From a virus: 64,000 bases of DNA. Made by a program: the position numbers and the translations under genes. Numbering within the stretch: position 1 is the stretch's first letter; each line of letters opens with the position of its first letter. Location: positions 1 through 64,000 of IMG/VR virus record IMGVR_UViG_3300031772_000003; one strand, written 5' to 3'. Below are positions 22,746-35,395 of this stretch, piece by piece. The notes beneath the pieces were generated by a model. That model was not told the origin of the DNA and searched no databases. It was given only the letters and a program-made list of their open reading frames with translations.

Positions 22746-23879
22746 TTACGATTTCGGTGGCTCGCCCCACAAACGGTCCACCTCGGCTAGGATAGTGCAG
22801 GGGTTCAGATTCATGAGTCGAGCGCATCCACGCTCCGTGCATTTCACGGTATAGCCCCACGCGGGACGGCGCGAACACGGGCCCTCGCATACCACGTCCA
22901 TTCCCTCCAGGGCGGTACAGAGGGGGTAGGTGTGGATCGTCGCCACCGACGTGGGCCCGAACAATCCGATGCAGCGGGTCCGCGTCGCCGCTGCGAGATG
23001 GAGGATGGCGCTGTCGACGCATATCGCGCCCCAGCAGTTCGCTAGGACCCATGCCAGAGCGGGCAGGGCGAGCCCGATGACAGGCACGGCTCCATCAGGC
23101 ACGATAAAGTGGGGCTCCACGAGGTCGAGAACTAGGGGCCGGAGGCCACGCGCGAGGAGACCCTGGACCAAGTACTCCGCGTAGGGCCGTGGGTACGTCC
23201 GTTCCAAGGCTGAGGCTCTCAGCGCCACGGCGACCCACGGCTCACGCCCTCTTGAGCAGCCCAAGTGGGTTGAGACGGGCCCACTGTCCTCCCCGAACCT
23301 GAATCCCCATGAGGGGCAGGCGTGGCTCAAGCCCTTGGTCTTAGCGGCGGCGCAGAACAAACCGGCTCTGCCCCGATCGACCGCGGGCAGGGTACAAGCC
23401 AACTCGTAGGCTTCGCCTGGGCACCATAGGTCCACTATGGTCTTGGGCTCGCAACCCCGCAACGGCGCGAGGTAGGGGTAGCGCGTGGAATCAATGGGCC
23501 CGCCGCGCTCTCGCCGGCCCTGTGCCTTGATTTCTTTTACTGTACCGAGCCCGATGAAGTTCTCGACGCCGTAGAGGTGGCGATAGACTTCGGCGTAGTC
23601 CAATGGGGCGAAGACCGTCACGACGCACGCGGGGTCCTCGTGGCGGAGTTGCCGGGCCGCGGCCCCAACGCACAACGAATCGCCTATTGCCCCTCCGTCT
23701 CTGAGGAGACGGTGGAAGCGTCCACGATCAGCGGCGCACAATGGCTTGGGTCCCCCGTCTGCCAACCATACGGTTGTTTCTGGGCCGTGGGATCGGGGTA
23801 GATTCGAGCCAGTAACTCCGGGCCCACCTCGGACATGATCCATAGGGCCATGCGGACGTACCGCCACATCAGGGCGCAA
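22746..23879 (-). CDS. glycosyltransferase, GT9 (heptosyltransferase-like); start uncertain
   Basis: GAIGDSL, VDSAILHLAAA, IGLFGPT. Confidence 0.85.
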   Translation of the reverse strand: MRPDVAVRPHGPMDHVRGGPGVTGSNLPRSHGPETTVWLADGGPKPLCAADRGRFHRLLRDGGAIGDSLCVGAAARQLRHEDPACVVTVFAPLDYAEVYRHLYGVENFIGLGTVKEIKAQGRRERGGPIDSTRYPYLAPLRGCEPKTIVDLWCPGEAYELACTLPAVDRGRAGLFCAAAKTKGLSHACPSWGFRFGEDSGPVSTHLGCSRGREPWVAVALRASALERTYPRPYAEYLVQGLLARGLRPLVLDLVEPHFIVPDGAVPVIGLALPALAWVLANCWGAICVDSAILHLAAATRTRCIGLFGPTSVATIHTYPLCTALEGMDVVCEGPCSRRPAWGYTVKCTERGCARLMNLNPCTILAEVDRLWGEPPKS

Positions 23880-26125
23880 CCGGCGTCATAGGGCTGGGTC
23901 ATCGAGCCGTACTCCGCGAGAGAGGCATGACGGCACCCGCCGCCACAGGCCCACCTGGCCGCGCACTTCATGCATATCTCAGATCGATAGGATCGATTCT
24001 CGCACCACGGCAGACGAGCTACCTCATCGATCCCACCGCGGTCGAGATGGCCGATCTCTGAGGGGGTCTCACGATGGCAGTTATGTACGAAGACACCTGC
24101 TGCCAGAGCGAAATTATGGTACTTCTCTACTTCAAGACAGTACACATCCGCCCTACCGGCGGGGGCGACTGAAACAACCCGGTGGTTGGTCGGGGCAGTA
24201 ACATAGTGGTCCGTCTGGCGCTGGTGGTTCCCGCAGCAGCCCGCATTGGTAAACGCCCTACTACAAACGGGACAGGCAGTACTTTTGACCGCGTACCACC
24301 TAAGTCGGGCTAGATGCTCGCCACTGTGGAGATGGATGTACCGACCATTGGTGGGATCATGCGATGCCCTGCTTGTTGCTACTGCTAACCTACCCCTCCA
24401 TCGGGTCTTGTTCTTCTGAATCCCGGCGAGGGCGTAATTGATGTTCTCACGGTTGATGGGTTCCATCTTCTTACGGAAATCTTGGCTTTGCCATTGGTCT
24501 GCTATGCTGTACCCACCCTCATCTAGGTGTCGTTTTCTGTGTTCCGAGTGAGTTAGTGCATCCAAGTTGTCGGGGTCGTTGTTTCTACTATTCCCATCTT
24601 TGTGGTGGACAACCTTCCTTTTAGGGAGTGGGCCGTGGATGGCCTCCCAGACCATCTGGTGGGTTGATAACCGCGCCCCACCTGGGTGGTACAGGCTCTC
24701 ATAGAATGCTACATGACCGCCGTGGCTTTTATGCCTAGCTGTGAGACCTTTGTAGAGGGGCATCAGGGACGCACCCGAAGCTAGTTGGTCAGCCCTGCAA
24801 TACGTCCCATCTCGGAGCATGAAAGGATGGTCAGGGGTACAACGGACCACCTCTCGGTTGTCCAGTGTCACAGCAAGAAGTTCTTGGTCTTTGGCTACCA
24901 GGTGGGCCGTGGCTCTTCCTGGAACCACTTTGTCCCCATCATAAGAGTACACCCAAAGGGGCTTTGGGTGCGCCACTAGGTCAGCAATTGGCTGATCCAT
25001 TCCGTTGAGCAGGGACACCTTAGTGTCCCCCGCGAAGCAGGCAAAAATCTCGCCGTCAGGGGCCACACTAACTACCCCACTGCCTGCGCCGCACTCAGTT
25101 GGACTGTGCTGTGTCCACAATAGACGGGTCAGGAATACCTCCATGCCGTGCAGTCGGGGCCTCTTGCCCGCTCGCAGACGCTCCACGGCCCAGTCCGCCA
25201 CGGACATGTACTCCTCGTCCAAGCCCTCGATGTCTGCAGCAGTGAGGTTGAGAGCAGCCCGCTTGCGGTCGACGCACCGGGTCTCAGAGAGGCAGATCGG
25301 CTCCACGGAGACCCCCTGGGCATAGCCCTGGTCGCAGAGATCGTTGAGATGAGCCACCCGCTCCAGGACATGAGTGGAGCCGTTATAGAAGGTGGAGCGG
25401 AGCGTTATGGCACCGGCCCGTGCGGCCTTGAGCCCGTCCAATGCGGCCCTCACGAGCCCGTAGCTGCCGCTCCCGTTGATCATGGGGCGAGCCGCATCGT
25501 GGAGAGGCTGGGGGCCGTCCAGCGAGACAATGAGGCTGAAACCATGCTCAACAAGCCACCTTGCCTTTGCTTCACTAAGGAGGACCGCATTGGTGGTGAC
25601 GTGCAGAGAGGGCTTGAGCGGAGCGGCATAGCCCTCCACGAATATCGCCGCTTCCTTGAGCGTCTCCCATGCCATCAGAGGCTCGCCGCCGAAGAAGCTG
25701 ACATGGACACCCATGCCCTGGGGCATATGCCCACAGGGCCTGGCAAGGAGGCGTGTGATCGCGGCCTTGGCCGTGGTGATGGACATGACCTTGACCGGAG
25801 AGTCAGGATAGTCATGGGTGAAGCAGTAAAGGCAAGAAAGGCAGCAAGCGTGCGTTAGTTCCAGCACGACCATACCGGGCTGTCGGGCCGTGTAGGGATC
25901 GAACTGGGGCCGTTTGTCCAGTAGGGGCACCGCCTCCTCGGGTGTATCGGTTTGGAACACCGCCAGCGAGTTGGTGTCGAGGGCGAAGTGCCGGTCCCGG
26001 ACTTGGATGCGGGCCGCCTCGGGCTTGGCGTCGTACCACTTAGTCCTGTTAAGCTTGATCTCGGCGTTGAGCTTACGCAACAGGGGTCTCCTGACTTTCC
26101 CGTCCAATTCCAAGGGCCAGCCCAT
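23684..26125 (-). CDS. radical SAM/SPASM-domain maturase-like enzyme with an HNH intein
   Basis: CCLSCLYC, FFGGEPL, TTNAVLL, VSLDG; SPASM CGAG...C|H...CMKC...CGGGC...C. Confidence 0.92.
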   Translation of the reverse strand: MGWPLELDGKVRRPLLRKLNAEIKLNRTKWYDAKPEAARIQVRDRHFALDTNSLAVFQTDTPEEAVPLLDKRPQFDPYTARQPGMVVLELTHACCLSCLYCFTHDYPDSPVKVMSITTAKAAITRLLARPCGHMPQGMGVHVSFFGGEPLMAWETLKEAAIFVEGYAAPLKPSLHVTTNAVLLSEAKARWLVEHGFSLIVSLDGPQPLHDAARPMINGSGSYGLVRAALDGLKAARAGAITLRSTFYNGSTHVLERVAHLNDLCDQGYAQGVSVEPICLSETRCVDRKRAALNLTAADIEGLDEEYMSVADWAVERLRAGKRPRLHGMEVFLTRLLWTQHSPTECGAGSGVVSVAPDGEIFACFAGDTKVSLLNGMDQPIADLVAHPKPLWVYSYDGDKVVPGRATAHLVAKDQELLAVTLDNREVVRCTPDHPFMLRDGTYCRADQLASGASLMPLYKGLTARHKSHGGHVAFYESLYHPGGARLSTHQMVWEAIHGPLPKRKVVHHKDGNSRNNDPDNLDALTHSEHRKRHLDEGGYSIADQWQSQDFRKKMEPINRENINYALAGIQKNKTRWRGRLAVATSRASHDPTNGRYIHLHSGEHLARLRWYAVKSTACPVCSRAFTNAGCCGNHQRQTDHYVTAPTNHRVVSVAPAGRADVYCLEVEKYHNFALAAGVFVHNCHRETPSEIGHLDRGGIDEVARLPWCENRSYRSEICMKCAARWACGGGCRHASLAEYGSMTQPYDAGCALMWRYVRMALWIMSEVGPELLARIYPDPTAQKQPYGWQTGDPSHCAPLIVDASTVSSETEGQ
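24080..25039 (-). mobile_element. intein with HNH homing endonuclease (320 aa)
   Basis: CFAGDT start, CTPDH, VVHHKDGNSRNNDPDNL HNH, ends HNFALAAGVFVHN|C. Confidence 0.95.
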
Positions 26126-26495
26126 CGAGGCTGCGGGCAATCTTTGAGATGAGGTTTCCGGCGATTTGGGCGCAACGGCTCGCCTCTTCAGGGGTCGTGC
26201 ATTCGCCGTGAATGATGATCTGCCCGGAAACTGTGGCGGCCATGCTCGGATTGCCGCTCGCGGACGCCTCAAAGGTGTGCTTGGATGTGCTGCCTTGGCT
26301 GATGTAAAGGACTTCGTAGTCGGTCCCGTTCATTTGTCGTCCCCCTCGTTCTGCTTCTGCATCCCATTCTGGATGAGTCGGCCCAGAGGCCCCACGACCA
26401 ACTCGGTCCCGTCTACCAGTCTGGCGTAGTAGCCTGTATCCACCAGTGCGGTGGTGTTGTAGCCCAAGAGAACAAGTTCCTGTGGGGCGACGCCC

Positions 26496-27320
26496 CTACG
26501 GGGTTTTCTGTTCCTGTTTCTCATCCAATCCCCCTCGCATCGCTCGATAAACAACCTCTGGGGTAGTCATCTGAATCGGGTTTACCCGAGTGCAGTACTG
26601 AAAGTCCGCAGCATGAACTGGCGGAATCTCCGCCGCTTCGCGCCCGATGGCCTCCCCCAGTGATCTATAGTCGTAGCAGGGTAGGGGACACGCAGCATTG
26701 CACCTGTAAATCGTGAGCCCAGCGGCCCGGAGGTGGGGGGCCAACTCGGCCATTCGTACCCCGGTATCCGTGTAGAGCCTCTGGTTCCGCTCGACATCCT
26801 CGGCTTTCATTGGATTGCCGTGGGCATACTGCCGCTCCGCGCTGATCTCAAGATCGACTCCGACGAGGTAGAGCCTGCGGAAGCCGAGGCGGTACGCCAG
26901 TTGCAGCGCGACGAAGAATGTATTCTTCCAGTGGACGTACTCGGACCGGGGGGCCAGCAGGCCCGGTATGTCGAACGCGGGTGAGGTGTCGTAAAAGAGG
27001 GTGCTGGGGTGCTCGCACGAGCACTTGCCCATGATCACGTCCCGGTAGCACTTGATCGGGAGGCACTTCACGACACGGGGGTTGGCCAGGATGCCAGGGG
27101 GGAACCCTGCGGGGCTATCCAAGGTGACCCACCACTGCGGCCAGTCGTAGGTGGCAATGGCGGAGTTCACGGCTATGACGGGGAGGCGGGATACCCGGAG
27201 AGCGTCGAGGGGCTCGCGCTTGAGACTTGGACCGGGACAGACGAGGAACCCGGCCCCTGACTGGGTATCGTAGAGGTCCACGGGCTTGTATCTGCCGTCA
27301 GGCCAACACCGCCAGAGCAT
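26496..27320 (-). CDS. Maf/DUF115-like (glycosyltransferase-like) protein
   Basis: LVCPGPSL, IAVN, ALQLAYRLGFRRLYLVGVD. Confidence 0.7.
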   Translation of the reverse strand: MLWRCWPDGRYKPVDLYDTQSGAGFLVCPGPSLKREPLDALRVSRLPVIAVNSAIATYDWPQWWVTLDSPAGFPPGILANPRVVKCLPIKCYRDVIMGKCSCEHPSTLFYDTSPAFDIPGLLAPRSEYVHWKNTFFVALQLAYRLGFRRLYLVGVDLEISAERQYAHGNPMKAEDVERNQRLYTDTGVRMAELAPHLRAAGLTIYRCNAACPLPCYDYRSLGEAIGREAAEIPPVHAADFQYCTRVNPIQMTTPEVVYRAMRGGLDEKQEQKTP

Positions 27321-27360: not shown

Positions 27361-27391
27361 GTGGCCGGGCCGATACCCTCGACCCGGCCAC
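27361..27391 (-). terminator. strong GC hairpin after the tRNA-like element
   Basis: GTGGCCGGGTCGA-GGGTA-TCGGCCCGGCCAC; weak U tract. Confidence 0.5.
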
Positions 27392-27399
27392 GAGGTGCA

Positions 27400-27650
27400 T
27401 AAGGGGAGCGATGCTCCCACAGTACGCAGGGGGACGCGCTGATTCTCGCTGGGCTTGTAAGGTTGAGCTTGTGGCACCCACAGTCTTGCCGTTGGACGAC
27501 GCCCGCTGGGGCTTAGTTCTGGAGCGGGCAGCAGGAGTCGAACCTGCATTGTGAGCATTCGCAAGTGCCAGCATCTGCGTCCTCTGAGCCTTCTAGGCAG
27601 GCCCCTGACATCCAGCTTCAACCTACACCTGAGTCTGAAGCTAGCCTAGT
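27400..27650 (-). ncRNA. structured RNA with a circularly permuted tRNA-Gly-like domain
   Basis: 3' half (T-arm GCAGG-TTCGACT-CCTGC, TGCCCGC-T-CCA; 27556-27520) precedes the 5' half (GCGGGCG-TC-D arm-GTGGG; 27506-27477), joined by a 13-nt linker. Confidence 0.8.
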
Positions 27651-28400
27651 TCAGTTCCCCAGCGGAAGATCACCGAGCACATACTTGAAGATGCCTGCGG
27701 CGATCTTCTCGGTGGCATGGGTGGCCGCATTGGCGGCGGCAAGCGCGGTCTTGACGGCCTCGCGGAGTTTGTCCAGGCGACCGAGCATGCCTGACTTCTC
27801 GGCGTTGGAGATGGCACCCGACCAGATGCGCGTGGTGAACGTCCCGACCTGCACGTCCTCTGCCCAAGTGTTCACTTGGGCGGGGTGGTGATCGGTCGCG
27901 GGCACCACGACTTGGCTCTTGGGCACCTTCGCCGTGCGGTATTGCTCCACGGGCAGGGAGACCCGCACACCTGGGCCGATGTCGCTGGCGGTCCATGCTA
28001 CCTTGCTCTCGATAACGGGCGCGGCGGCGATGATCTCACGCAGTTCAGCGAGCCTCTTGTCGAGTTGCAGGAGTGCCGTTCCGGGTATATTCTCGATGCT
28101 GAGACCGTCGCAGTGGATGCCGGCTTTCGCCGTCGTGTTCGTCACATCGACTTGATAGCCCGCATCGATCAGTGGGCCTGCGGCTGCGATGAACTCAGCG
28201 ATGTCGCTGCCCACCGTTGCGGCCATTTCCTCACGCTGGTCGGGGAGCTTCTCCCCATCCTCTCGCATGGGCCTGTACGTTTTCTCGACGCCTCTGTAAC
28301 GGTGATCTTCTCCGAAGCGCCGCTTGACTACCTCGGCCGCGGTTTGTGCCGCACGCTTCCTCTCGGGAATCACTGCCAACACCTCGTGCAACTGACCCAT
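27651..28400 (-). CDS. conserved coiled-coil protein (DUF7873-like, from memory)
   Basis: QLHEVLAV, G.EKTYRP..EDGEKLP, ALLQLDKRL, RTAKVP, ATDHHPAQV...EDVQVG...WSGA; AGGAG RBS. Confidence 0.75.
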   Translation of the reverse strand: MGQLHEVLAVIPERKRAAQTAAEVVKRRFGEDHRYRGVEKTYRPMREDGEKLPDQREEMAATVGSDIAEFIAAAGPLIDAGYQVDVTNTTAKAGIHCDGLSIENIPGTALLQLDKRLAELREIIAAAPVIESKVAWTASDIGPGVRVSLPVEQYRTAKVPKSQVVVPATDHHPAQVNTWAEDVQVGTFTTRIWSGAISNAEKSGMLGRLDKLREAVKTALAAANAATHATEKIAAGIFKYVLGDLPLGN

Positions 28401-28776: not shown

Positions 28777-29706
28777 TCATTCTCCTTTGCCTGCTGCGGT
28801 TCGGAGCGCACTGAGCCGTGACAGCAAATCCTCGGATCGCGGGGCGCGCCAGCCAATGGCCCCTGCACCCCCTGTCCGCACATTGTTCAGAGACCAGTCG
28901 TCACCATCCGCGCCATTATTGAGTACGAACCAGATGTAGTCGGGGCCAACAACCCACCAGGAACCTCCACCATAGATGGTCTGCGTGTCAAACCACCTCT
29001 CCCCTTCTGGGGAGTTACTACCCTCTGGCCTCTCGCCACGCTCCCTAACTTCTTGCTCCAGGGCTCGAAGCGTCGTGGATCGTACCGTGGCGGCATCCCT
29101 ACGCTGCCGCTGAGCGTCCTCCTGTGCTCTTAGGGGAGTCATCTCGTCCTCAGTTGCAGCCCTCGCGGTGGCCCAGTAGGCGTAGCCACTTTGGTCCCCA
29201 ACCCCAAAACTCATCCCGTCCTCCCTGTAGTAACGCTGGCCGGTAGTGACGACGGTGACATACTCCGGCCCAGTATCATCGTAGGCACTACGTAGTAAGA
29301 AACACTTCTTGCAGTACGGCTTAGGTTGGATGCCGGGCCGTTTGCCCATTTCGCTTGGTTCAGTCATCCCCCACTCATGTTCGCCCTTCTTGCATGGGCG
29401 TCGATCGGGGTTGCGCACGGTTTGGCCGACATCCCAACCTGCGTCCCCATAGCCGCTGCCCCCACTCAACCTATACGGGCCCTCTACTGTGGCAGATTGG
29501 GGCTGAGCTCGGGGGGCCACTGAGGAGGGCGCGGGTTCGACTTGGGGTTCGGGGCAGCGGATATGGCTGGCCCGCTTGCCCGGCTCCCAGTTGATCTTGT
29601 CGCCGATGTTGATGTCGCCACCACAGCGGGGGCATCGCCCAGGGTATCGTGCGGACATCTCCCGCTCCAGCAGCCTGTCCACTGCCTTTTTGGTCAAATC
29701 GTCCAT
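28777..29706 (-). CDS. Zn-ribbon protein with MDDLTKKAVDRLLE leader
   Basis: ARYPGRCPRCG..I..GDKI.W...H..C domain; paralogous N-terminus with 29840..30544. Confidence 0.75.
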   Translation of the reverse strand: MDDLTKKAVDRLLEREMSARYPGRCPRCGGDINIGDKINWEPGKRASHIRCPEPQVEPAPSSVAPRAQPQSATVEGPYRLSGGSGYGDAGWDVGQTVRNPDRRPCKKGEHEWGMTEPSEMGKRPGIQPKPYCKKCFLLRSAYDDTGPEYVTVVTTGQRYYREDGMSFGVGDQSGYAYWATARAATEDEMTPLRAQEDAQRQRRDAATVRSTTLRALEQEVRERGERPEGSNSPEGERWFDTQTIYGGGSWWVVGPDYIWFVLNNGADGDDWSLNNVRTGGAGAIGWRAPRSEDLLSRLSALRTAAGKGE

Positions 29707-30618
29707 CGCCTGCTCCTAGAAAGCCCCCACAGCGAGCAACGGTGGCCCGCAGGGGCGTCCGTGGGCCTCAAGTGGACCTCGTCCTTGATCTTGTCCTTCT
29801 TCGTCACGGGTACTCTCCTTTTTTTTGCCACGGGGGGTATTAGAATGCGATCAGCCGCGAGATTGCCCTGTTCCCGCACAGGATACGCGAGCCTGATTCA
29901 TCGTAGGCCCCCCACCCCTGCCTGATCGTCAGGGGAAGCGTTCCTGGTTTCGCACCGGCGACATGGGCGCAGAGTGGCTCCGCTTCATCGTCCACAAACC
30001 AACCCGGGTTCCCACCCATCCAGCCTCGCGCCTCCCAGCGCTTCCGGCAGCGGACACAGCGGACCGTGAATCGATCACTCGGCAAAGGGCGCGCGATCCG
30101 GGCGATGTCCTCGATGGCGGCCCCCAGGTAGACCCAGGAGTCACACTGGGCCCAATCCTCGTCCTGGTGGTGGCCACCTACAATGGCCTCACCCGAGCGC
30201 AGGATGGTCAACTCCTCCCACCCCCCGCTTGCGAGCATGGTCGCCAGGACATCCTGTGGGTTATCCAGGTCAACCTGCTTCCGCACCGTGGGTTGCGGGA
30301 AAACGGGCCGCGAGGCGGTTGAGGTCCGAGGCTCCTCAGCCTCGCCGGGCTCAGCCGAGTCGTCCACGTCCGGCTCGTCCGGTGGGTCGCAGCATGCAGC
30401 GTGCCTGGCCTTCTGTCCAGGTTCCCAGACAATAGCGTCTCCAACCTCGATGTAGTCGCCACACTCGGGGCAGCGACTGGCGTACTTTGCCTGCATGCGG
30501 CGTTCGAGGAGCCTGCCCACTGCCTTTTTGGTCAAATCGTCCATCGCCTGCTCCTAGAAAGCCCCCACAGCGAGCAACGGTGGCCCGCAGGGGCGTCCGT
30601 GGGCCTCAAGTGGACCTC
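29679..30618. repeat. 102-bp perfect direct repeat (29679-29780 and 30517-30618)
   Basis: Identical 5' leader and first codons of two paralogous genes. Confidence 0.95.
29840..30544 (-). CDS. Zn-ribbon protein with MDDLTKKAVGRLLE leader
   Basis: AKYASRCPECG..I..GD.I.W...H..C; second CVRC. Confidence 0.75.
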   Translation of the reverse strand: MDDLTKKAVGRLLERRMQAKYASRCPECGDYIEVGDAIVWEPGQKARHAACCDPPDEPDVDDSAEPGEAEEPRTSTASRPVFPQPTVRKQVDLDNPQDVLATMLASGGWEELTILRSGEAIVGGHHQDEDWAQCDSWVYLGAAIEDIARIARPLPSDRFTVRCVRCRKRWEARGWMGGNPGWFVDDEAEPLCAHVAGAKPGTLPLTIRQGWGAYDESGSRILCGNRAISRLIAF

Positions 30619-30657
30619 TGCTACCTCACGGGGGCCGCGAGGCCCGTGTACGGCCTT

Positions 30658-30686
30658 AGTATAGCACACCAGCCTGTGGGGGTCAA
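30658..30686 (-). promoter_or_regulatory. sigma70-type promoter
   Basis: TTGACC-17 nt-TATACT with extended TG(n), intergenic. Confidence 0.75.
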
Positions 30687-30687
30687 G

Positions 30688-31350
30688 CTACTTGTCCTGT
30701 TTCTCAGACTCCTTGACCCCATCCCTCCCGGCAGCCGTGAGGGGAGGCAGGTACTTGATGAGCAGCTTGAAGGTCACAGGCTCGTCAGCCTTGACTCGTG
30801 ACGGTTTGGTAATACAGAGGCAGTACTTGCCGGGGCCTCTGTCAATCTTGGTCACGGTGACTTGGCCTCTCACCTCGTAGCTCACCACGCCCGCCATGGC
30901 GGGAGGCTGGGGGAGGGTCTTTGAGCGAAAGTCGCCATCATCCTTCCATGCGGGCTCGTCTGGTATGCCGTTGAGCGTGATGTCCACGATGGGATGTCCC
31001 GACCTACGCCATTCCATCCCTGAACGGGACAAGTGCAATTCGACGTGATCTCCGCGCAGGGTCGCCACGATCAACAAGCTCTTGGCTTCCCTCTTGGGGG
31101 CTATGGTGCGGTACTGCTTCGTCACGGCGAGGCGGGACTCGATGTCCGCGATGAGAGCCTTGTCGTCCTGGACCTTCGCCTTGGTCAGGAGCGACTCCAG
31201 CCCGTTGGCATAGTCCCGGTCCAACTCCCGGAGTTGGCCCGGGAGAGGGAGTTCCGCGGGTACTCCTGCTGGCTGGGCCCGCAGGGCAGAAATGAGTCCC
31301 AGTAGGATAGTGAGGCACAGCAGTTTACGCATCTCATTCCCCTTCGCCAT
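30688..31350 (-). CDS. putative exported protein
   Basis: Signal-peptide-like MRKLLCLTILLGLISALRA. Confidence 0.65.
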   Translation of the reverse strand: MAKGNEMRKLLCLTILLGLISALRAQPAGVPAELPLPGQLRELDRDYANGLESLLTKAKVQDDKALIADIESRLAVTKQYRTIAPKREAKSLLIVATLRGDHVELHLSRSGMEWRRSGHPIVDITLNGIPDEPAWKDDGDFRSKTLPQPPAMAGVVSYEVRGQVTVTKIDRGPGKYCLCITKPSRVKADEPVTFKLLIKYLPPLTAAGRDGVKESEKQDK

Positions 31351-31363
31351 AGTATTCTCTCCT

Positions 31364-31380
31364 CCCACCCCTAGAATCAA
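31364..31380 (-). promoter_or_regulatory. conserved upstream motif, copy 7
   Basis: TTGATTCTAGGGGTGGG; its TGA is the stop codon of the radical SAM gene. Confidence 0.75.
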
Positions 31381-32180
31381 GTCGGGCCGTATCTGGTTAG
31401 GGCCGGTGGGCCGGTGGCCTCAAACTTAGCCAAGGCTCGCTCCCATGAGGGAGAGACTTGTGGATGTGCCAGGCTCTGTATCGCAGGCTCAATCCCATTG
31501 TATACCCCGCAGAGTGGGCAAGCCTCCTGTAGGATAGCTTCCAGATGCTCTGGGGTCACTTGCCGCAGCACTTTGACCCCCCAGTCTCCGCCGAATACCC
31601 TATCAATTGCGGCGGCTGGGGCACAGGGATAGAAGCCTGCGTAGTTGAGCCCGAAACCGCACTTCCCGGAGGCATAGCAGCCGCGACAATGATGTTTAGT
31701 TGGCCATGATGGTCTGTCACACGGGGCCAATGTAACCGCAAAGTGCTGTTCGGTGGGGCCGTTGATCTTTTGCGTATTCCGAACACCTACACTGGGGCAC
31801 TGTTCCCTTAGCCACTCAATCTCCTGTTCCACCTTCTGGCCCACCCCGCGCGTCACGACCAGTATGTCAACATGATCGGGTGACCGGGCTTGGTAGGCTA
31901 CTGTTTCTGCAACGATGGCATGGAGTTGTGGGTGGAGCGTCGGTTCCCCTCCCATGAGAGCTATTCGCTGCCACAAGTGTCCGGACTGCTCGGACTCGTG
32001 CAGAGCATACTTTAGCTGCTCCACATCCATATCGGCCTCATGGCCAGCCCGCGCAAGTCCTGTGATGCGGTTGCAGTCGACGCAGTTATGTCCACACACA
32101 TAGGTAATATCGATCTCAAGGCGGTGGGGGTTAAGCCAAGCCTGCGTAGAGTATGGAATCATTGTAAGACTCCCAACCAC
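31377..32180 (-). CDS. radical SAM protein
   Basis: CGHNCVDC, MGGEPTLHP, C-terminal Cys cluster (CG...YPC...CPLCG). Confidence 0.88.
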   Translation of the reverse strand: MVGSLTMIPYSTQAWLNPHRLEIDITYVCGHNCVDCNRITGLARAGHEADMDVEQLKYALHESEQSGHLWQRIALMGGEPTLHPQLHAIVAETVAYQARSPDHVDILVVTRGVGQKVEQEIEWLREQCPSVGVRNTQKINGPTEQHFAVTLAPCDRPSWPTKHHCRGCYASGKCGFGLNYAGFYPCAPAAAIDRVFGGDWGVKVLRQVTPEHLEAILQEACPLCGVYNGIEPAIQSLAHPQVSPSWERALAKFEATGPPALTRYGPT

Positions 32181-33220
32181 GCGGTCCGAAACACATCCAA
32201 TCCCATCTCCCGCATCGCTTTAGCTCTGGCAGCCTGCCCCATGGCTACACGCTCCTTTGGGTTATCCCGCAGCCACTTGAGCCTATCTATGAATTGCTGT
32301 CGGTCACCATATGGTACGAGGAAGCCCGTTATCCCGTCCTCGACTTGCTCCACGTTGCCTCCGCGGGCCTCAGAGACCACGGGGATGGCCGCGGCCATCA
32401 TCTCAGCTATCGCCAGGGAATAACCCTCCACGAAATGCTCTGCATTCCTGTAAATCGCGCAGTCCATCTGCTGTAAATAGCCAAACCTGGCCGTGATCGA
32501 TGGGGGTACGAAGGAGACCTTGCCTAGAAGCCCCCTGGCCCTGAACTGTTCTTTGGGGGTATCTCCCACAATGATCCCCCGAGTGGCCGTTGATATGACA
32601 GACTCGAATATCTCTGCGAGGTCACTGGGGTACTTCTCGGGCAGATCACTGCCGTAACGTCCAATGACGCATGACCCGAGCCGTGCAGGATCATCCTGGG
32701 CAAGCTTAGTGGCTGTGATTGAGCCCACATCGACACAGCCATGTATGAGCGTTGCTTTGTCCCGAAGGGGGGGCGGGAGGGTCTGCAGTCCCGCAGCACA
32801 GACACAAACATGGTTGTGCATGCCAGCTACCCAACCCGGCCTGGGGTTGTGGTAAACCGCTGTGTACTTGGGCCCAGGAGTAGAAAGCCTTGATGGGATA
32901 CGGCTCAAGTCGTTCCACGCATGGTTGACTACGGCATCGGGCCGAAGACTCGCCACATGAGCACAGACACAGTGGTCCCTGGCTTGGTACACCTTAGCTC
33001 CTGCTTGAAGCAGGGCTTGGCGCATGGTCTCATCGGTCCAGTTGCTGTCGATGATGATATGGTGGTCCCACTCATAGAGTGCCCTTACCATGTGGGCGAC
33101 GTAACTCTCGGCTCCACCGATGACTAGGAATTGAAGGTAATGGAGGCAGATACCACCGGTTCCCCGTTGAGTGGAGCGCTCCCGCCACGATTCATCCCAT
33201 TGGGGCCAGGGGGCATTCAC
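32159..33220 (-). CDS. glycosyltransferase, GT4 family
   Basis: GGAESY; EGYSLAIAEMMAAAIPVV...GGNVEQVEDGITGFLV. Confidence 0.92.
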   Translation of the reverse strand: MNAPWPQWDESWRERSTQRGTGGICLHYLQFLVIGGAESYVAHMVRALYEWDHHIIIDSNWTDETMRQALLQAGAKVYQARDHCVCAHVASLRPDAVVNHAWNDLSRIPSRLSTPGPKYTAVYHNPRPGWVAGMHNHVCVCAAGLQTLPPPLRDKATLIHGCVDVGSITATKLAQDDPARLGSCVIGRYGSDLPEKYPSDLAEIFESVISTATRGIIVGDTPKEQFRARGLLGKVSFVPPSITARFGYLQQMDCAIYRNAEHFVEGYSLAIAEMMAAAIPVVSEARGGNVEQVEDGITGFLVPYGDRQQFIDRLKWLRDNPKERVAMGQAARAKAMREMGLDVFRTAWLGVLQ

Positions 33221-35395
33221 CTACCATCTCCTCGCAGTCTCGGCATACCAACTCCCCATTTCCACATCCAAGACAAAATCGAAATACTTGAGGTACTGTG
33301 GGATCACGGCGTCGATGGAGTAGAGCCTGATGGCCCGCTCTCGTATGTAGATGGGGTCAAGCTCGGGGACATGGAGGAGGGCGTAACTGAACTCCGACAT
33401 GGTACGGCACCGGAAACCGGTCTTGCCGGGCTCGACTACCTCACTGAAGCTCCCCCAGTCTGTGGATATTACCGGCACCCCTGCCATTTGGCTCTCCGCA
33501 GCCACGAGACAGAACGGTTCCTGGTAGATTGATGGGGTGAAAACAGCGATGGCATTTGCGATCACCTTAGCTTTTTCTGCCCCTACGAGCCCATCATGGT
33601 ATGCCCTAAGCTTAACTTTGTGCTTGTCACAGACCTGTTGGGCAATGTACTCGCCTTTATCGACGTTGTTGCGCCCAATGAACAGGGCGTAATCCCCGGT
33701 TTTGTGTTCCGCTGGTGGGTAGTCACTGGGATCGAGGAAGTGGGGAATCACGGTGTCGAACCACTTGTAGCGCTCCGTTCGTCCGGGGTCTGTGGCATAA
33801 AGGATGGTCTGCTGGGCATAGCTTGGAAAGACCTTGTACGTGGCCCAGACCGAGGGGTAACCGGCCAGCACCTCGATGATAGGTGGCATGGCATAGGAGT
33901 GGACCCCTGCATGGGCCCAACCGTAAGTGGACGCCGCGATCTGCCGCCAGTTTTGGGCGTGGCTTACACCCATTGCGAACGCCGCGGAAAGCCGCTTGGT
34001 GTACTCCTCATGCCATTCATTGTTCCATGCCCATGTGCTTGCTGTTGGCAATCCGAGGCTCACGAATTGCCCCCCCTCCGGCACTTTAGATCCCTCAATG
34101 CCGTAGTAGGAGTAGGGAACGTGGGCGCGGGAGAGGAGGCGGCAGAACAGGGCGGCGCAAGCAAGTTGGGCGTCACTGGGGGCCGCCAGGATGTCCAGTG
34201 GAAGCGTAGGGTGCCCAAAAACATGGACGGATAGTGGAGGGGTTGCGGTTAGATGTGTAGTTACGGATATGCTACCCGAGATTTCACTTCTGCCTCCTTG
34301 CTGGTACGCAATGGGGGGTTGGGTTGCATATTTCTCTACTCCCACAAGCCTGCACAAACAAGCATCGTTGATGGCTCTGGGCTGGGCCTCCTCCCATTCC
34401 CGCAGCACGGCCTCGTATGCTCCCTGGAACACGATGTAGGCAATACCACCCATAAAGCCCTGCCCCTTGATGAGATGGGTGGAATACTGCTGCTGATTGC
34501 CGCGATTGAAACCACCGAGGTAAAGCAGACCAGCCGTTGCTGGGGCCTCTGCGAGGGCCTGGGGGATTACGGCCACGGCCTCTGGGGTGAAAGCCGCGTC
34601 GTCCTCCAACACCAGGACCGCGGGGTATCCTCGGCGCTGAGCTTCACGGACGACCCCGATGTGGGAGAGCAAACAACCGTACATCCCAGCCCTGGTTGCT
34701 CCACCCTGCCGGGGTGGATCGAAGCCAGAGGGTACATCGGCATCCTCGATGATGATGCCTGGGAAGCGCTCCAAGGTGAGGAGCGGCCCTACGGTATCTC
34801 GAACCCTGGCTAGGAAGGAATCTTTACGGTCGGGGCTGCGAGCAAGATTGATGTAGAACGCTGGTAGGGGACATCGGACCCCACACTTCGGCAGCTTCCC
34901 ATGAGGATAAAGCCAGATGAGCGAATTGCGGCGCTCAAACTGCAGGCCAGTCTCGGTGACGGTCTTTATAACCCCCACGAACCCTAAGATGTAATCATGG
35001 AATACAGCAACGCCACCGGGGGCCACAAGCGCCGTCCACCTCTCGTAGTCGGCTTTGCAGGCAGCATAGTGGTGGTCGGCATCGATGAGAAGGAGGGCAA
35101 TCGGCCCTGTGGGAAGCGGAACTTCCTGAGTCTTGCCGCAAAGTGCTTGGATATTGTGGTAGGGGGCCGTGGTGTCTTGGAACTCCATGAGTTGGTTGGG
35201 TCTCTCTATATTATCAAATGTGTCCACTGCGATGATGATGCGCTCAGGGGCGGTCTGGGCCAGCATGACCGTGGTTCGCCCAAGGAAGCAACCCAACTCC
35301 ACGATGCACCCTGGGATGTCCTTTACCCCCTCCACGAGTTGGAGAAGTTGCTCGATCTCATCGGGGGCCAAGCTCCACATCACGTCATCTGCCAC
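33221..35395 (-). CDS. trifunctional SAM-methyltransferase + GT25-like + GT4 glycosyltransferase
   Basis: VELGCFLGRT/IDADH/FHDY (MTase); YINLARSPDR/GCLLSH/VLEDDA (GT25); EPFCLVAAESQMAGVPVI (GT4). Confidence 0.9.
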   Translation of the reverse strand: MADDVMWSLAPDEIEQLLQLVEGVKDIPGCIVELGCFLGRTTVMLAQTAPERIIIAVDTFDNIERPNQLMEFQDTTAPYHNIQALCGKTQEVPLPTGPIALLLIDADHHYAACKADYERWTALVAPGGVAVFHDYILGFVGVIKTVTETGLQFERRNSLIWLYPHGKLPKCGVRCPLPAFYINLARSPDRKDSFLARVRDTVGPLLTLERFPGIIIEDADVPSGFDPPRQGGATRAGMYGCLLSHIGVVREAQRRGYPAVLVLEDDAAFTPEAVAVIPQALAEAPATAGLLYLGGFNRGNQQQYSTHLIKGQGFMGGIAYIVFQGAYEAVLREWEEAQPRAINDACLCRLVGVEKYATQPPIAYQQGGRSEISGSISVTTHLTATPPLSVHVFGHPTLPLDILAAPSDAQLACAALFCRLLSRAHVPYSYYGIEGSKVPEGGQFVSLGLPTASTWAWNNEWHEEYTKRLSAAFAMGVSHAQNWRQIAASTYGWAHAGVHSYAMPPIIEVLAGYPSVWATYKVFPSYAQQTILYATDPGRTERYKWFDTVIPHFLDPSDYPPAEHKTGDYALFIGRNNVDKGEYIAQQVCDKHKVKLRAYHDGLVGAEKAKVIANAIAVFTPSIYQEPFCLVAAESQMAGVPVISTDWGSFSEVVEPGKTGFRCRTMSEFSYALLHVPELDPIYIRERAIRLYSIDAVIPQYLKYFDFVLDVEMGSWYAETARRW

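What the first reader, a model, noticed from the sequence alone, without database searches (positions are those of the whole stretch)
27361..28400. Circularly permuted tRNA-Gly-like RNA fused to the 3' UTR of a conserved coiled-coil gene
Seen (minus strand, starting at the stop codon at 27651): a tract with A every 6 nt (CTAGCT TCAGAC TCAGGT GTAGGT TGAAGC); then a tRNA 3' half CTCAC-AAT-GCAGG-TTCGACT-CCTGC-TGCCCGC-T-CCA (27556-27520); a 13-nt linker; and only then the matching 5' half GCGGGCG-TC-GTCCAACGGCAAGAC-T-GTGGG (27506-27477). The halves form a full 7-bp acceptor stem, T arm, D arm and anticodon stem (GTGGG/CTCAC). There is no anticodon loop: the helix continues as long-range pairs (TGGCAC/GTGCCA, GCTG/CAGC, GGACGC/GCGTCC), and 27626-27614 can pair with 27469-27457 as a pseudoknot. 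Known: G1-C72, C2-G71, G3-C70 and U73 are bacterial tRNA-Gly identity elements, and two-piece tmRNAs use this permuted layout but carry Ala identity (G3-U70). Inference: RNase P plus 3' trimming would give a two-piece RNA in which the upstream mRNA itself ends in a possibly glycylatable CCA, and the encoded protein may bind the hexamer tract. This would be a protein + tRNA-mimic module that standard tRNA scanners miss.
Basis: partly seen in the sequence, partly recalled or inferred. Interest (0 to 1): 0.88.

Follow-up and report, generated by a model that had tools for sequence, protein, structure and literature searches.

The report
tRNA-mimic RNA beside DUF7873 gene
A phage gene of unknown function (DUF7873) is followed by a folded RNA whose core is a back-to-front tRNA look-alike with no anticodon loop; the same gene-RNA pair recurs in many phages and bacteria, resembles the Ro60-bound YrlA 'Y RNAs' but travels without Ro60, and so probably marks an undescribed RNA-protein particle.

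Summary
On the minus strand, 27555-27477 holds a T arm, a 3' acceptor strand, U-CCA, a 13-nt loop, the matching 5' acceptor strand, a D arm and a 5-bp 'anticodon' stem with no loop. It lies between the DUF7873 gene (28400-27651) and a terminator hairpin (27391-27361). A covariance model of this core finds it right after the DUF7873 gene in 156 of 161 related loci and 7 of 8 cultured phages. The stems covary, the universal tRNA tertiary bases are invariant, and a family-wide 6-nt periodic tract precedes the first element. The topology is that of YrlA Y RNAs, whose M. smegmatis member is known to be cut by RNase P and given CCA. But Ro60/TROVE is absent from this virus and from 4 of 5 bacterial genomes tested, the flanking 'handle' differs from that of rsr-linked RNAs in the same genome, and Rfam's YrlA model scores 19 bits (cut-off 69). 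Glycine identity is not conserved (discriminator A 89, T 88, G 36, C 4; encoded CCA in 79 of 223). The tmRNA comparison fails. Best reading: a Ro60-independent, YrlA-like RNA working with a DUF7873 dimer; binding and processing are inferred. This scan noted the same module before on other DNA (112 notes, at least 69 genomes).

The parts
27651..28400 (-). DUF7873 protein gene (249 aa; ATG 28400-28398, TGA 27653-27651)
   Evidence: Pfam PF25283, 210 bits against a cut-off of 27. AF2 model mean pLDDT 86. 2534 family representatives at 50% identity. Homodimer predicted: ipSAE 0.76, best control 0.02.
27614..27644 (-). Domain-1 remnant: 6-nt periodic tract (27644-27615) folded as a hairpin (stem 27642-27636 with 27620-27614)
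   Evidence: Sequence and MFE fold. Across 146 unique loci the region between the stop codon and the first element has same-base frequency 0.336 at lag 6 and 0.320 at lag 12, against about 0.265 at other lags, with no lag-3 signal. In most relatives this domain also encloses a proximal tRNA-like element, which the window lacks.
27586..27604 (-). Small hairpin between the two domains
   Evidence: MFE and centroid fold only; not tested in relatives.
27557..27582 (-). 5' strands of the outer helices enclosing the core (27582-27577, 27572-27569, 27570-27565) and a 9-nt bulge containing CGAATG
   Evidence: Sequence and MFE fold. Equivalent helices P0, P1 and P2 in 35 non-redundant relatives are 92.6%, 91.9% and 93.4% paired, against 13-52% with slid partners. 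Register in the window is not testable.
27477..27555 (-). Permuted tRNA-like core: anticodon-like stem (27555-27551 with 27481-27477), T arm 27547-27531, acceptor stem (27530-27524 with 27506-27500) closed by U-CCA plus a 13-nt linker (27523-27507), D arm 27497-27483
   Evidence: R1 59.8 bits, E 3e-19. Rfam YrlA aligns end to end at 19.4 bits. ARAGORN cloverleaf on rejoined halves. U8, A14, G19, A21, G53, T54, T55, C56, A58 and C61 are invariant and G18 is kept in at least 90% of 58 aligned elements.
27431..27476 (-). 3' strands of the outer helices (27477-27472, 27451-27448, 27437-27432) with a 20-nt bulge (27471-27452) resembling the family's conserved 3' internal-loop motif
   Evidence: Family motif seen.
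27403..27420 (-). Short hairpin before the terminator
   Evidence: MFE fold only.
27361..27391 (-). Terminator-like hairpin (13-bp stem, 10 G-C pairs) ending the gene + RNA unit
   Evidence: No sigma-70-like promoter was found between the gene and the RNA.

Best explanation
The stretch 27650-27355 (minus strand) encodes a structured non-coding RNA of about 300 nt. It is co-transcribed with, or made just after, the DUF7873 gene, and the two are inherited together as a module. The RNA is built like a YrlA-class Y RNA. Its core is a tRNA mimic (T arm, 7-bp acceptor stem closed by a loop, D arm, anticodon stem without a loop) with all the bases that hold a tRNA in its L shape. The core sits on a long irregular helix with conserved internal loops, which acts as the 'handle'. 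Shown here: the anatomy, its covariation, the near-universal linkage to DUF7873, and the absence of Ro60 linkage. Inferred: a DUF7873 dimer binds the handle and/or the 6-nt periodic tract, making a Ro60-independent particle that presents one or two tRNA-like heads to tRNA-recognising factors. By analogy with M. smegmatis YrlA, RNase P probably cuts 5' of 27506 and the 3' end is trimmed to the encoded CCA at 27520, leaving a nicked two-piece RNA. The likely role lies in tRNA or RNA surveillance, or in phage-host conflict over tRNAs, for example as a decoy or adaptor that anticodon nucleases cannot cut.
For: Anatomy in the window. Linkage: element after the gene in 156 of 161 loci, with two or more in 89, and in 7 of 8 cultured phages. 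No other neighbouring protein is conserved, and bacterial neighbours are unrelated housekeeping genes. Structure without pre-selection: acceptor stem 7/7 in 208 of 223 unique elements and T stem 5/5 in 220. D stem 97.9% paired and outer helices 92-93% paired, against 13-64% with slid partners. Anticodon-like stem perfect in 47% against 8% with shuffled flanks. Tertiary bases invariant or nearly so. Not tandem-tRNA junctions. Same design as Y RNAs: R1 finds two tandem elements just upstream of the rsr/TROVE gene in a genome that also has the DUF7873 module, and Rfam YrlA gives sub-threshold hits on distal elements (34.9 bits, E 2.6e-4). Ro60-independent: no TROVE in this virus; none in 4 of 5 bacterial genomes, and on another contig in the fifth; more than 100 kb away in 2 of 5 jumbo phages and absent from the other 3. 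Protein-specific handle: rsr-linked and DUF7873-linked RNAs of one genome have different flanking motifs. One transcription unit: no promoter-like site, and a terminator after the RNA. Dimer: ipSAE 0.76, best control 0.02, runs agree in at least 97% of contacts, partner pLDDT 91; that mark was reached by 20 of 30 proteins solved as pairs and 1 of 23 solved as single chains. Processing precedent: PMC4201824. Decoy idea for YrlA: PMC7790460.
Against: Adjacency alone does not show that the protein binds the RNA. The protein has no recognisable RNA-binding domain or solved relative. The window's copy is atypical: one tRNA-like element, not two, and its handle motifs are rearranged relative to the family consensus. 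The closest relative is too diverged to test the window's own helices. My loci were the best-scoring relatives. One of 8 cultured phages (Microcoleus) and 5 of 161 loci gave no downstream hit; in one of those five (L096) the hits lie upstream of the gene. An earlier checked note of this scan doubted that the pairing holds in far relatives. Some DUF7873 phages do carry TROVE elsewhere, so cooperation with Ro60 is not excluded everywhere.
Confidence: 0.55

Rival explanations
1. It is an ordinary YrlA Y RNA that works with a Ro60/Rsr protein encoded elsewhere, by the host for phages. DUF7873 is merely a neighbour or an accessory factor.
For: Same topology as YrlA, with full-length sub-threshold alignments to RF02553. 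R1 also detects the rsr-linked RNAs. The window carries CGAATG just 5' of the core, close to the Ro-binding GNCGAAN0-1G motif. Two of 5 jumbo phages with DUF7873 have a TROVE gene.
Against: Four of 5 bacterial genomes with the module have no TROVE gene, and neither does this virus. Where both exist they are unlinked, whereas YrlA is defined by lying within 4 kb of rsr on the same strand. In one genome the flanks of rsr-linked and DUF7873-linked RNAs differ. No locus reaches RF02553's gathering score.
Confidence: 0.08
2. It is a cis-acting 3' element of the DUF7873 mRNA: a tRNA-like structure that sets the mRNA 3' end through RNase P and protects it from exonucleases. No separate RNA-protein particle exists.
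For: It lies immediately downstream on the same strand in almost all of the loci with an element, with no promoter-like site between and a terminator after. Mature tRNA-like ends resist bacterial exonucleases (discussion in PMC4201824).
Against: A conserved two-domain RNA of 300-400 nt, with two tRNA mimics in most loci, covarying outer helices, conserved internal-loop motifs and a 6-nt periodic tract, is far more than end protection needs. The tRNA tertiary bases are kept invariant. Nothing excludes this rival outright, and it could co-exist with a trans role.
Confidence: 0.12
3. It is a permuted or split gene for a real decoding tRNA (as in some algae) or a two-piece tmRNA. It matures by cutting and rejoining and is then aminoacylated, with glycine in this window.
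For: The 3' half lies before the 5' half, the acceptor stem is 7 bp, and U73-CCA is encoded in the window. Rejoined halves give a cloverleaf.
Against: There is no anticodon loop in any member; the stem continues into covarying helices. Discriminator and acceptor sequences are not conserved. ARAGORN, which models permuted tmRNA, finds none in 163 loci or in the whole virus. The window has G3-C70, not the G3-U70 of tmRNA, and no Rfam tmRNA family reaches its gathering score in the window. No tag reading frame was looked for directly.
Confidence: 0.02
4. The gene-RNA pair is a conflict module of another kind, such as a toxin held in check by its own RNA (type III toxin-antitoxin-like). The tRNA shape would be incidental to stability.
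For: It is a stand-alone two-part module in variable contexts, in phages and chromosomes alike. The protein has invariant His, Glu and Asp residues that could be catalytic.
Against: No PADLOC or NCBIfam match. The RNA is not a tandem array of short repeats, and it follows rather than precedes the gene, unlike known type III systems (from established knowledge). The invariant tRNA tertiary bases argue that the tRNA shape itself is under selection.
Confidence: 0.08

Closest known systems
YrlA-class bacterial and phage Y RNAs bound by Ro60/Rsr (Rfam RF02553; Chen et al. 2014, PMC4201824; Wang et al. 2018, bioRxiv 10.1101/312249)
   Same: A circularly permuted tRNA mimic: T arm, acceptor stem closed by a loop, D arm, and an anticodon stem continued into a handle. 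The tRNA tertiary bases are kept. It often occurs as two tandem RNAs next to the partner gene. The M. smegmatis member has a 7-bp acceptor stem, is cut by RNase P and ends in CCA. R1 detects both kinds of RNA.
   Different: No linked Ro60/TROVE gene, and often none in the genome. The constant partner is DUF7873. The handle motifs differ. The GNCGAAN0-1G motif is not matched exactly. RF02553 scores 19-35 bits against a cut-off of 69. A 6-nt periodic domain is present. The RNA lies 3' of its partner gene.
Two-piece (circularly permuted) tmRNA with SmpB
   Same: The gene order places the 3' acceptor piece before the 5' piece. An intervening segment is removed by tRNA-processing enzymes. There is no anticodon arm, and a dedicated protein partner exists (from established knowledge).
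   Different: No match from ARAGORN's tmRNA models or, at gathering score, from Rfam's tmRNA families. G3-C70 in the window, and no conserved alanine identity. The partner is not SmpB.
Permuted tRNA genes of the red alga Cyanidioschyzon merolae (recalled from memory, not read here)
   Same: The 3' half is encoded upstream of the 5' half.
   Different: Those mature through a circular intermediate into normal tRNAs with anticodon loops. Here no anticodon loop exists in any member.
AcrIIIA1, a phage protein-RNA anti-CRISPR complex (PMC11662646)
   Same: A phage protein that works together with tRNA-derived RNA.
   Different: AcrIIIA1 binds fragments of host tRNAs and tmRNA, not a dedicated phage-encoded mimic. 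The proteins are unrelated.

Membership tests
YrlA / Y RNA-like (RF02553) | tRNA-like domain: T arm, acceptor-like stem closed by a loop, D arm, enclosed by a stem | tested here: met
   The features are as defined in PMC4201824 and 10.1101/312249.
YrlA / Y RNA-like (RF02553) | Encoded within about 4 kb of an rsr (Ro60/TROVE) gene on the same strand | tested here: not met
   No TROVE match in the 163.7 kb virus record, which is 92% complete. None in 4 of 5 bacterial genomes carrying the module, and unlinked in the others.
YrlA / Y RNA-like (RF02553) | GNCGAAN0-1G motif near the 5' end (presumed Ro60 contact) | tested here: inconclusive
   The window has TGCGAATG at 27562-27555. It matches the motif except for the leading G (T instead) and lies directly before the core. 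Relatives carry an AUCGA-type loop instead.
YrlA / Y RNA-like (RF02553) | Reaches Rfam's gathering score (69 bits) | tested here: not met
   19.4 bits in the window. No gathering-level hit in 20 relatives. Best 34.9 bits. Rfam's model also missed the rsr-linked RNAs in L167, so this is a weak criterion.
YrlA / Y RNA-like (RF02553) | Bound by Rsr/Ro60 | not testable with these tools
   Needs immunoprecipitation.
Two-piece tmRNA | Permuted order with the acceptor piece before the coding piece | tested here: met
   Layout.
Two-piece tmRNA | G3-U70 alanine identity, and recognition by tmRNA models (which include the tag reading frame) | tested here: not met
   G3-C70 and U73. ARAGORN with its tmRNA models finds none. 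No Rfam tmRNA family at gathering score. A tag reading frame was not looked for directly.
Canonical or permuted decoding tRNA | Anticodon loop | tested here: not met
   The stem continues into outer helices. ARAGORN finds nothing when the halves are joined directly.
Bacterial tRNA-Gly identity | U73 with G1-C72, C2-G71 and G3-C70, conserved among homologs | tested here: not met
   Present in the window but not conserved: discriminator A 89, T 88, G 36, C 4, and acceptor sequences vary freely.
Pfam DUF7873 (PF25283) | Profile match above the gathering score over the full length | tested here: met
   210.3 bits against 27, profile positions 1-242 of 244.

The most novel reading that the evidence does not exclude
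DUF7873 and its one- or two-headed tRNA-mimic RNA form a new, widespread Ro60-independent ribonucleoprotein class. A symmetric protein dimer grips a handle and a 6-nt periodic tract. RNase P and 3' trimming open the acceptor loop to give a nicked RNA with a free CCA end. The particle engages tRNA-handling machinery (synthetases, CCA-adding enzyme, anticodon nucleases, EF-Tu or the ribosome), for instance as a phage decoy against tRNA-targeting defences.
Probability: 0.3. Interest if true: 0.8.

Novelty: new variant of a known kind. Interest (0 to 1): 0.7.

Why it matters
Y RNAs have so far been defined by their partner, Ro60. Here the same tRNA-mimic design is tied instead to one uncharacterised protein family. 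That family has about 2500 representatives at 50% identity. It occurs in actinobacteria, planctomycetes, cyanobacteria, Chloroflexota and many phages, including cultured Gordonia, Arthrobacter, Rhizobium, Vibrio and Klebsiella phages, where the gene often sits inside tRNA gene arrays. If the pair is a particle, tRNA mimicry is a reusable module that different proteins have adopted. That would give DUF7873 a testable function, and several hundred unannotated bases (or spurious small ORFs) in many phage genomes would gain an annotation. It would also provide tractable systems for asking what tRNA-like heads are for, which is still open for YrlA itself.

Tried and rejected
- Protein fold. Foldseek against the PDB gave no match at E <= 0.001. 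Its top rows were Cas7 subunits of Cascade, at probability <= 0.30 and TM about 0.15. That was tempting given the 6-nt period, but VIA-align over 48,161 chains gave only generic helical matches (best Z 9.0, to a de novo design) and no Cas7, so I dropped the lead.
- Other protein searches. A profile search of PDB sequences found nothing. PADLOC, NCBIfam and PHROGs gave no hit for the protein. The ESM Atlas found only its own family, plus weak (TM <= 0.47) unnamed phage and Bacillota clusters.
- A conserved second protein. All-against-all clustering of ORFs within 2.5 kb found none.
- Tandem-tRNA junction artefact. Excluded with ARAGORN.
Not better than shuffles. At the corresponding places the closest relative shows similar (direct-repeat) sequence, not complementary sequence.
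- Closer relatives, to test the window's own helices. The 46%-identical homolog's RNA is too diverged, and DNA for two others could not be fetched.
- Nucleotide search of cultured phages with the locus. No match.
- Public RNA reads.
Neither is held in the library, so whether a Ro-independent tRNA-like RNA with another partner is already in print remains unverified.
- Full-text searches. 'DUF7873' is in no paper. Searches for permuted or tRNA-like phage RNAs found no description of this module.
Full report
WHAT IS THERE. On the minus strand the window holds a 249-codon gene (28400-27651) that is a full-length member of Pfam DUF7873 (210 bits, cut-off 27). About 300 nt without a credible ORF follow, ending in a 13-bp terminator-like hairpin at 27391-27361. 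No sigma-70-like promoter lies between the gene and that hairpin. The order is: anticodon-like strand 27555-27551, T arm 27547-27531, 3' acceptor strand 27530-27524, U73, CCA 27522-27520, a 13-nt linker, 5' acceptor strand 27506-27500, D arm 27497-27483, and the partner strand 27481-27477. ARAGORN and Rfam at gathering score see nothing. When the halves are rejoined around a short loop, ARAGORN draws a normal cloverleaf. The window belongs to a 163.7 kb virus record, 92% complete. That record has no canonical tRNA or tmRNA gene and only this one strong copy of the element, so the element is not a scar of a tRNA cluster.

IS IT MORE THAN CHANCE? I collected relatives of the protein: 338 viral and at least 595 prokaryotic matches, keeping the best 80 of each. 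A strict pattern scan already found the permuted layout after the gene in 70 of 161 loci, with acceptor stems of quite different sequence. A covariance model built from 58 such cores (R1) then found full-length hits directly downstream of the gene in 156 of 161 loci, 89 of them with two or more, after removing hits that overlap ARAGORN tRNAs. The same holds in 7 of 8 cultured phages tested: Gordonia Ronaldo and GodonK, Klebsiella KpLz-2_45, Arthrobacter Mimi, Rhizobium RHph_Y65, Vibrio D474 and Pseudanabaena PA-SR01, but not the Microcoleus phage. In those genomes the RNA lies in an unannotated gap or under very small 'hypothetical' ORFs.

Among 223 unique elements not pre-selected for pairing, the acceptor stem is 7/7 in 208 and the T stem 5/5 in 220. 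The D stem, which I never selected for, is 97.9% paired in an alignment that was not fitted to any structure. The anticodon-like stem is perfect in 47% of elements, against 8% with shuffled flanks. U8, A14, G19, A21, G53, T54, T55, C56, A58 and C61 are invariant, and G18 is kept in at least 90%. These are the bases that lock a tRNA into its L shape.

THE WHOLE RNA. In most loci the RNA has two domains. The proximal tRNA-like element (usually A73, D arm starting GCCC) sits in a long interrupted helix whose strands carry short repeats with a 6-nt period. The distal one (usually U or G73) is enclosed by three nested helices, P0 to P2, around a conserved asymmetric internal loop. P0, P1 and P2 are 92.6%, 91.9% and 93.4% paired, against 13-52% for slid partners, with 84 compensatory cells in P2 alone.

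The 6-nt period is family-wide. Between the stop codon and the first element, same-base frequency is 0.336 at lag 6 and 0.320 at lag 12, against about 0.265 elsewhere. There is no lag-3 or lag-9 signal, unlike the coding control.

The window's copy is a reduced form. Domain 1 is only a hairpin carrying the periodic tract (27644-27614). The single tRNA-like element has the distal-class features (U73, D arm starting GTCC). Their order differs from the consensus, however, and the nearest relative (46% protein identity) is too diverged to test them base by base. The proposed pseudoknot is not supported.

WHAT IS IT LIKE? Rfam's YrlA model aligns end to end with the window's core but scores only 19.4 bits (cut-off 69). 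It reaches 34.9 and 27.8 bits on two distal elements. YrlA RNAs are the tRNA-mimicking Y RNAs bound by the bacterial Ro60 orthologue Rsr. Wang et al. describe them as circularly permuted tRNAs with closed acceptor stems. Chen et al. showed that the M. smegmatis member, which has a 7-bp acceptor stem like this one, is cut by RNase P in vitro and in vivo and acquires a CCA end, giving a two-piece RNA. They also showed that two such RNAs lie in tandem beside rsr.

IS IT A YrlA? YrlA is defined by linkage to rsr within 4 kb on the same strand and by a 5' GNCGAAN0-1G motif. TROVE is absent from this virus and from 4 of 5 bacterial genomes carrying the module. It lies on another contig in the fifth, and more than 100 kb away in the 2 of 5 jumbo phages that have one. 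In the one genome with both systems, R1 finds two tandem elements 95-312 nt upstream of the rsr ORF, which Rfam's own model misses. Their flanks share one pair of motifs, while the DUF7873-linked RNA of the same genome has another. I read this as a shared tRNA-like module with partner-specific handles. The window's TGCGAATG before the core is one base short of the Ro motif, so that test is inconclusive.

THE PROTEIN. The AF2 model is confident (mean pLDDT 86): a helical bundle with beta hairpins, one of which carries the invariant T-x-x-H-P-A-Q motif. It has no convincing solved relative and no defence-system or NCBI family name. All top 150 family members are single-domain proteins of 244-275 aa. 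Two copies are predicted to form a large symmetric dimer: ipSAE 0.76 against 0.02 for the best control, at least 97% contact agreement between runs, partner pLDDT 91. The same mark was reached by 20 of 30 proteins solved as pairs and 1 of 23 solved as single chains. This supports dimerisation but does not show it. A two-fold particle would fit the two-headed RNA, but that is my inference.

MECHANISM AND CONFIDENCE. Shown: the anatomy, the covariation, the linkage to DUF7873 and the independence from Ro60 genes. Inferred: that DUF7873 binds the RNA; that RNase P and 3' trimming open the acceptor loop; and that the tRNA-like heads recruit or distract tRNA-recognising factors. The placement of the gene inside tRNA arrays in many phages, together with Hughes et al.'s suggestion that YrlA's tRNA-like domain could competitively inhibit an anticodon nuclease, makes a role in tRNA-centred conflict attractive. 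But the chromosomal copies in actinobacteria sit among housekeeping genes, so a general RNA-surveillance role is equally open. Glycine charging is unlikely to be the point: discriminators (A 89, T 88, G 36, C 4) and acceptor sequences vary, and CCA is encoded in only 79 of 223 elements, the rest looking like CCA-less tRNA genes.

NOVELTY. I found no paper that mentions DUF7873 or describes this pairing, and the RNA is not in Rfam 15. An earlier checked note of this scan names Burroughs and Aravind 2016 as the nearest idea in print, but that paper is not held here and I could not verify it. The scan has flagged the same module on other DNA many times (112 notes, at least 69 genomes). My analysis was done independently and agrees with those follow-ups. 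I rate it a new variant of a known kind: a YrlA-type tRNA mimic with a different, uncharacterised partner.

Noticed in passing
window 23684-26272 (-): An 862-aa radical SAM protein appears to be interrupted by an intein carrying an HNH endonuclease (Radical_SAM 138-285, Intein_splicing 420-731, HNH_3 537-579).
   Followed up: no
window 28777-35395 (-): Upstream of the DUF7873 gene lies a run of glycosyltransferase, methyltransferase and a second radical SAM gene. The gene downstream of the RNA (26496-27320) weakly resembles sialyltransferase/MptE-like proteins. None of these neighbours is conserved in other DUF7873 loci.
   Followed up: partly
L164:1262-1680, L165:1909-2330 and L166:1285-1650: Contigs of the closest relative are identical across the RNA, except that L164 and L165 carry a canonical-looking tRNA directly after it, which L166 lacks: an insertion/deletion polymorphism of a tRNA gene at the RNA's 3' edge. 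A canonical tRNA within about 100 nt after the element is common in phage loci.
   Followed up: partly
L167:6161-6378 (-): Two tandem permuted tRNA-like elements just upstream of an rsr/TROVE gene in an actinobacterial genome are found by my model (47.4 and 23.2 bits) but not by Rfam's YrlA model at E <= 0.01. RF02553 seems to miss actinobacterial Y RNAs.
   Followed up: partly
L168:2229-2698; L174:2431-2526: Small 'hypothetical protein' ORFs annotated after the DUF7873 gene overlap the RNA in Gordonia phage Ronaldo (gp125; gp124 lies in the stretch before the first hit) and Vibrio phage D474. They are probably not genes.
   Followed up: partly
G000:C1:124233-124340 (-), outside the window: A weak second hit of the permuted-core model in the same virus (16.3 bits, E 6.5e-4).
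   Followed up: no
L115:4014-4831; L096:2110-2385: Unusual arrangements. A Ktedonobacterales contig has four elements about 900-1700 nt after the gene, and in one Planctomycetota genome the two elements lie upstream of the gene, not downstream.
   Followed up: no
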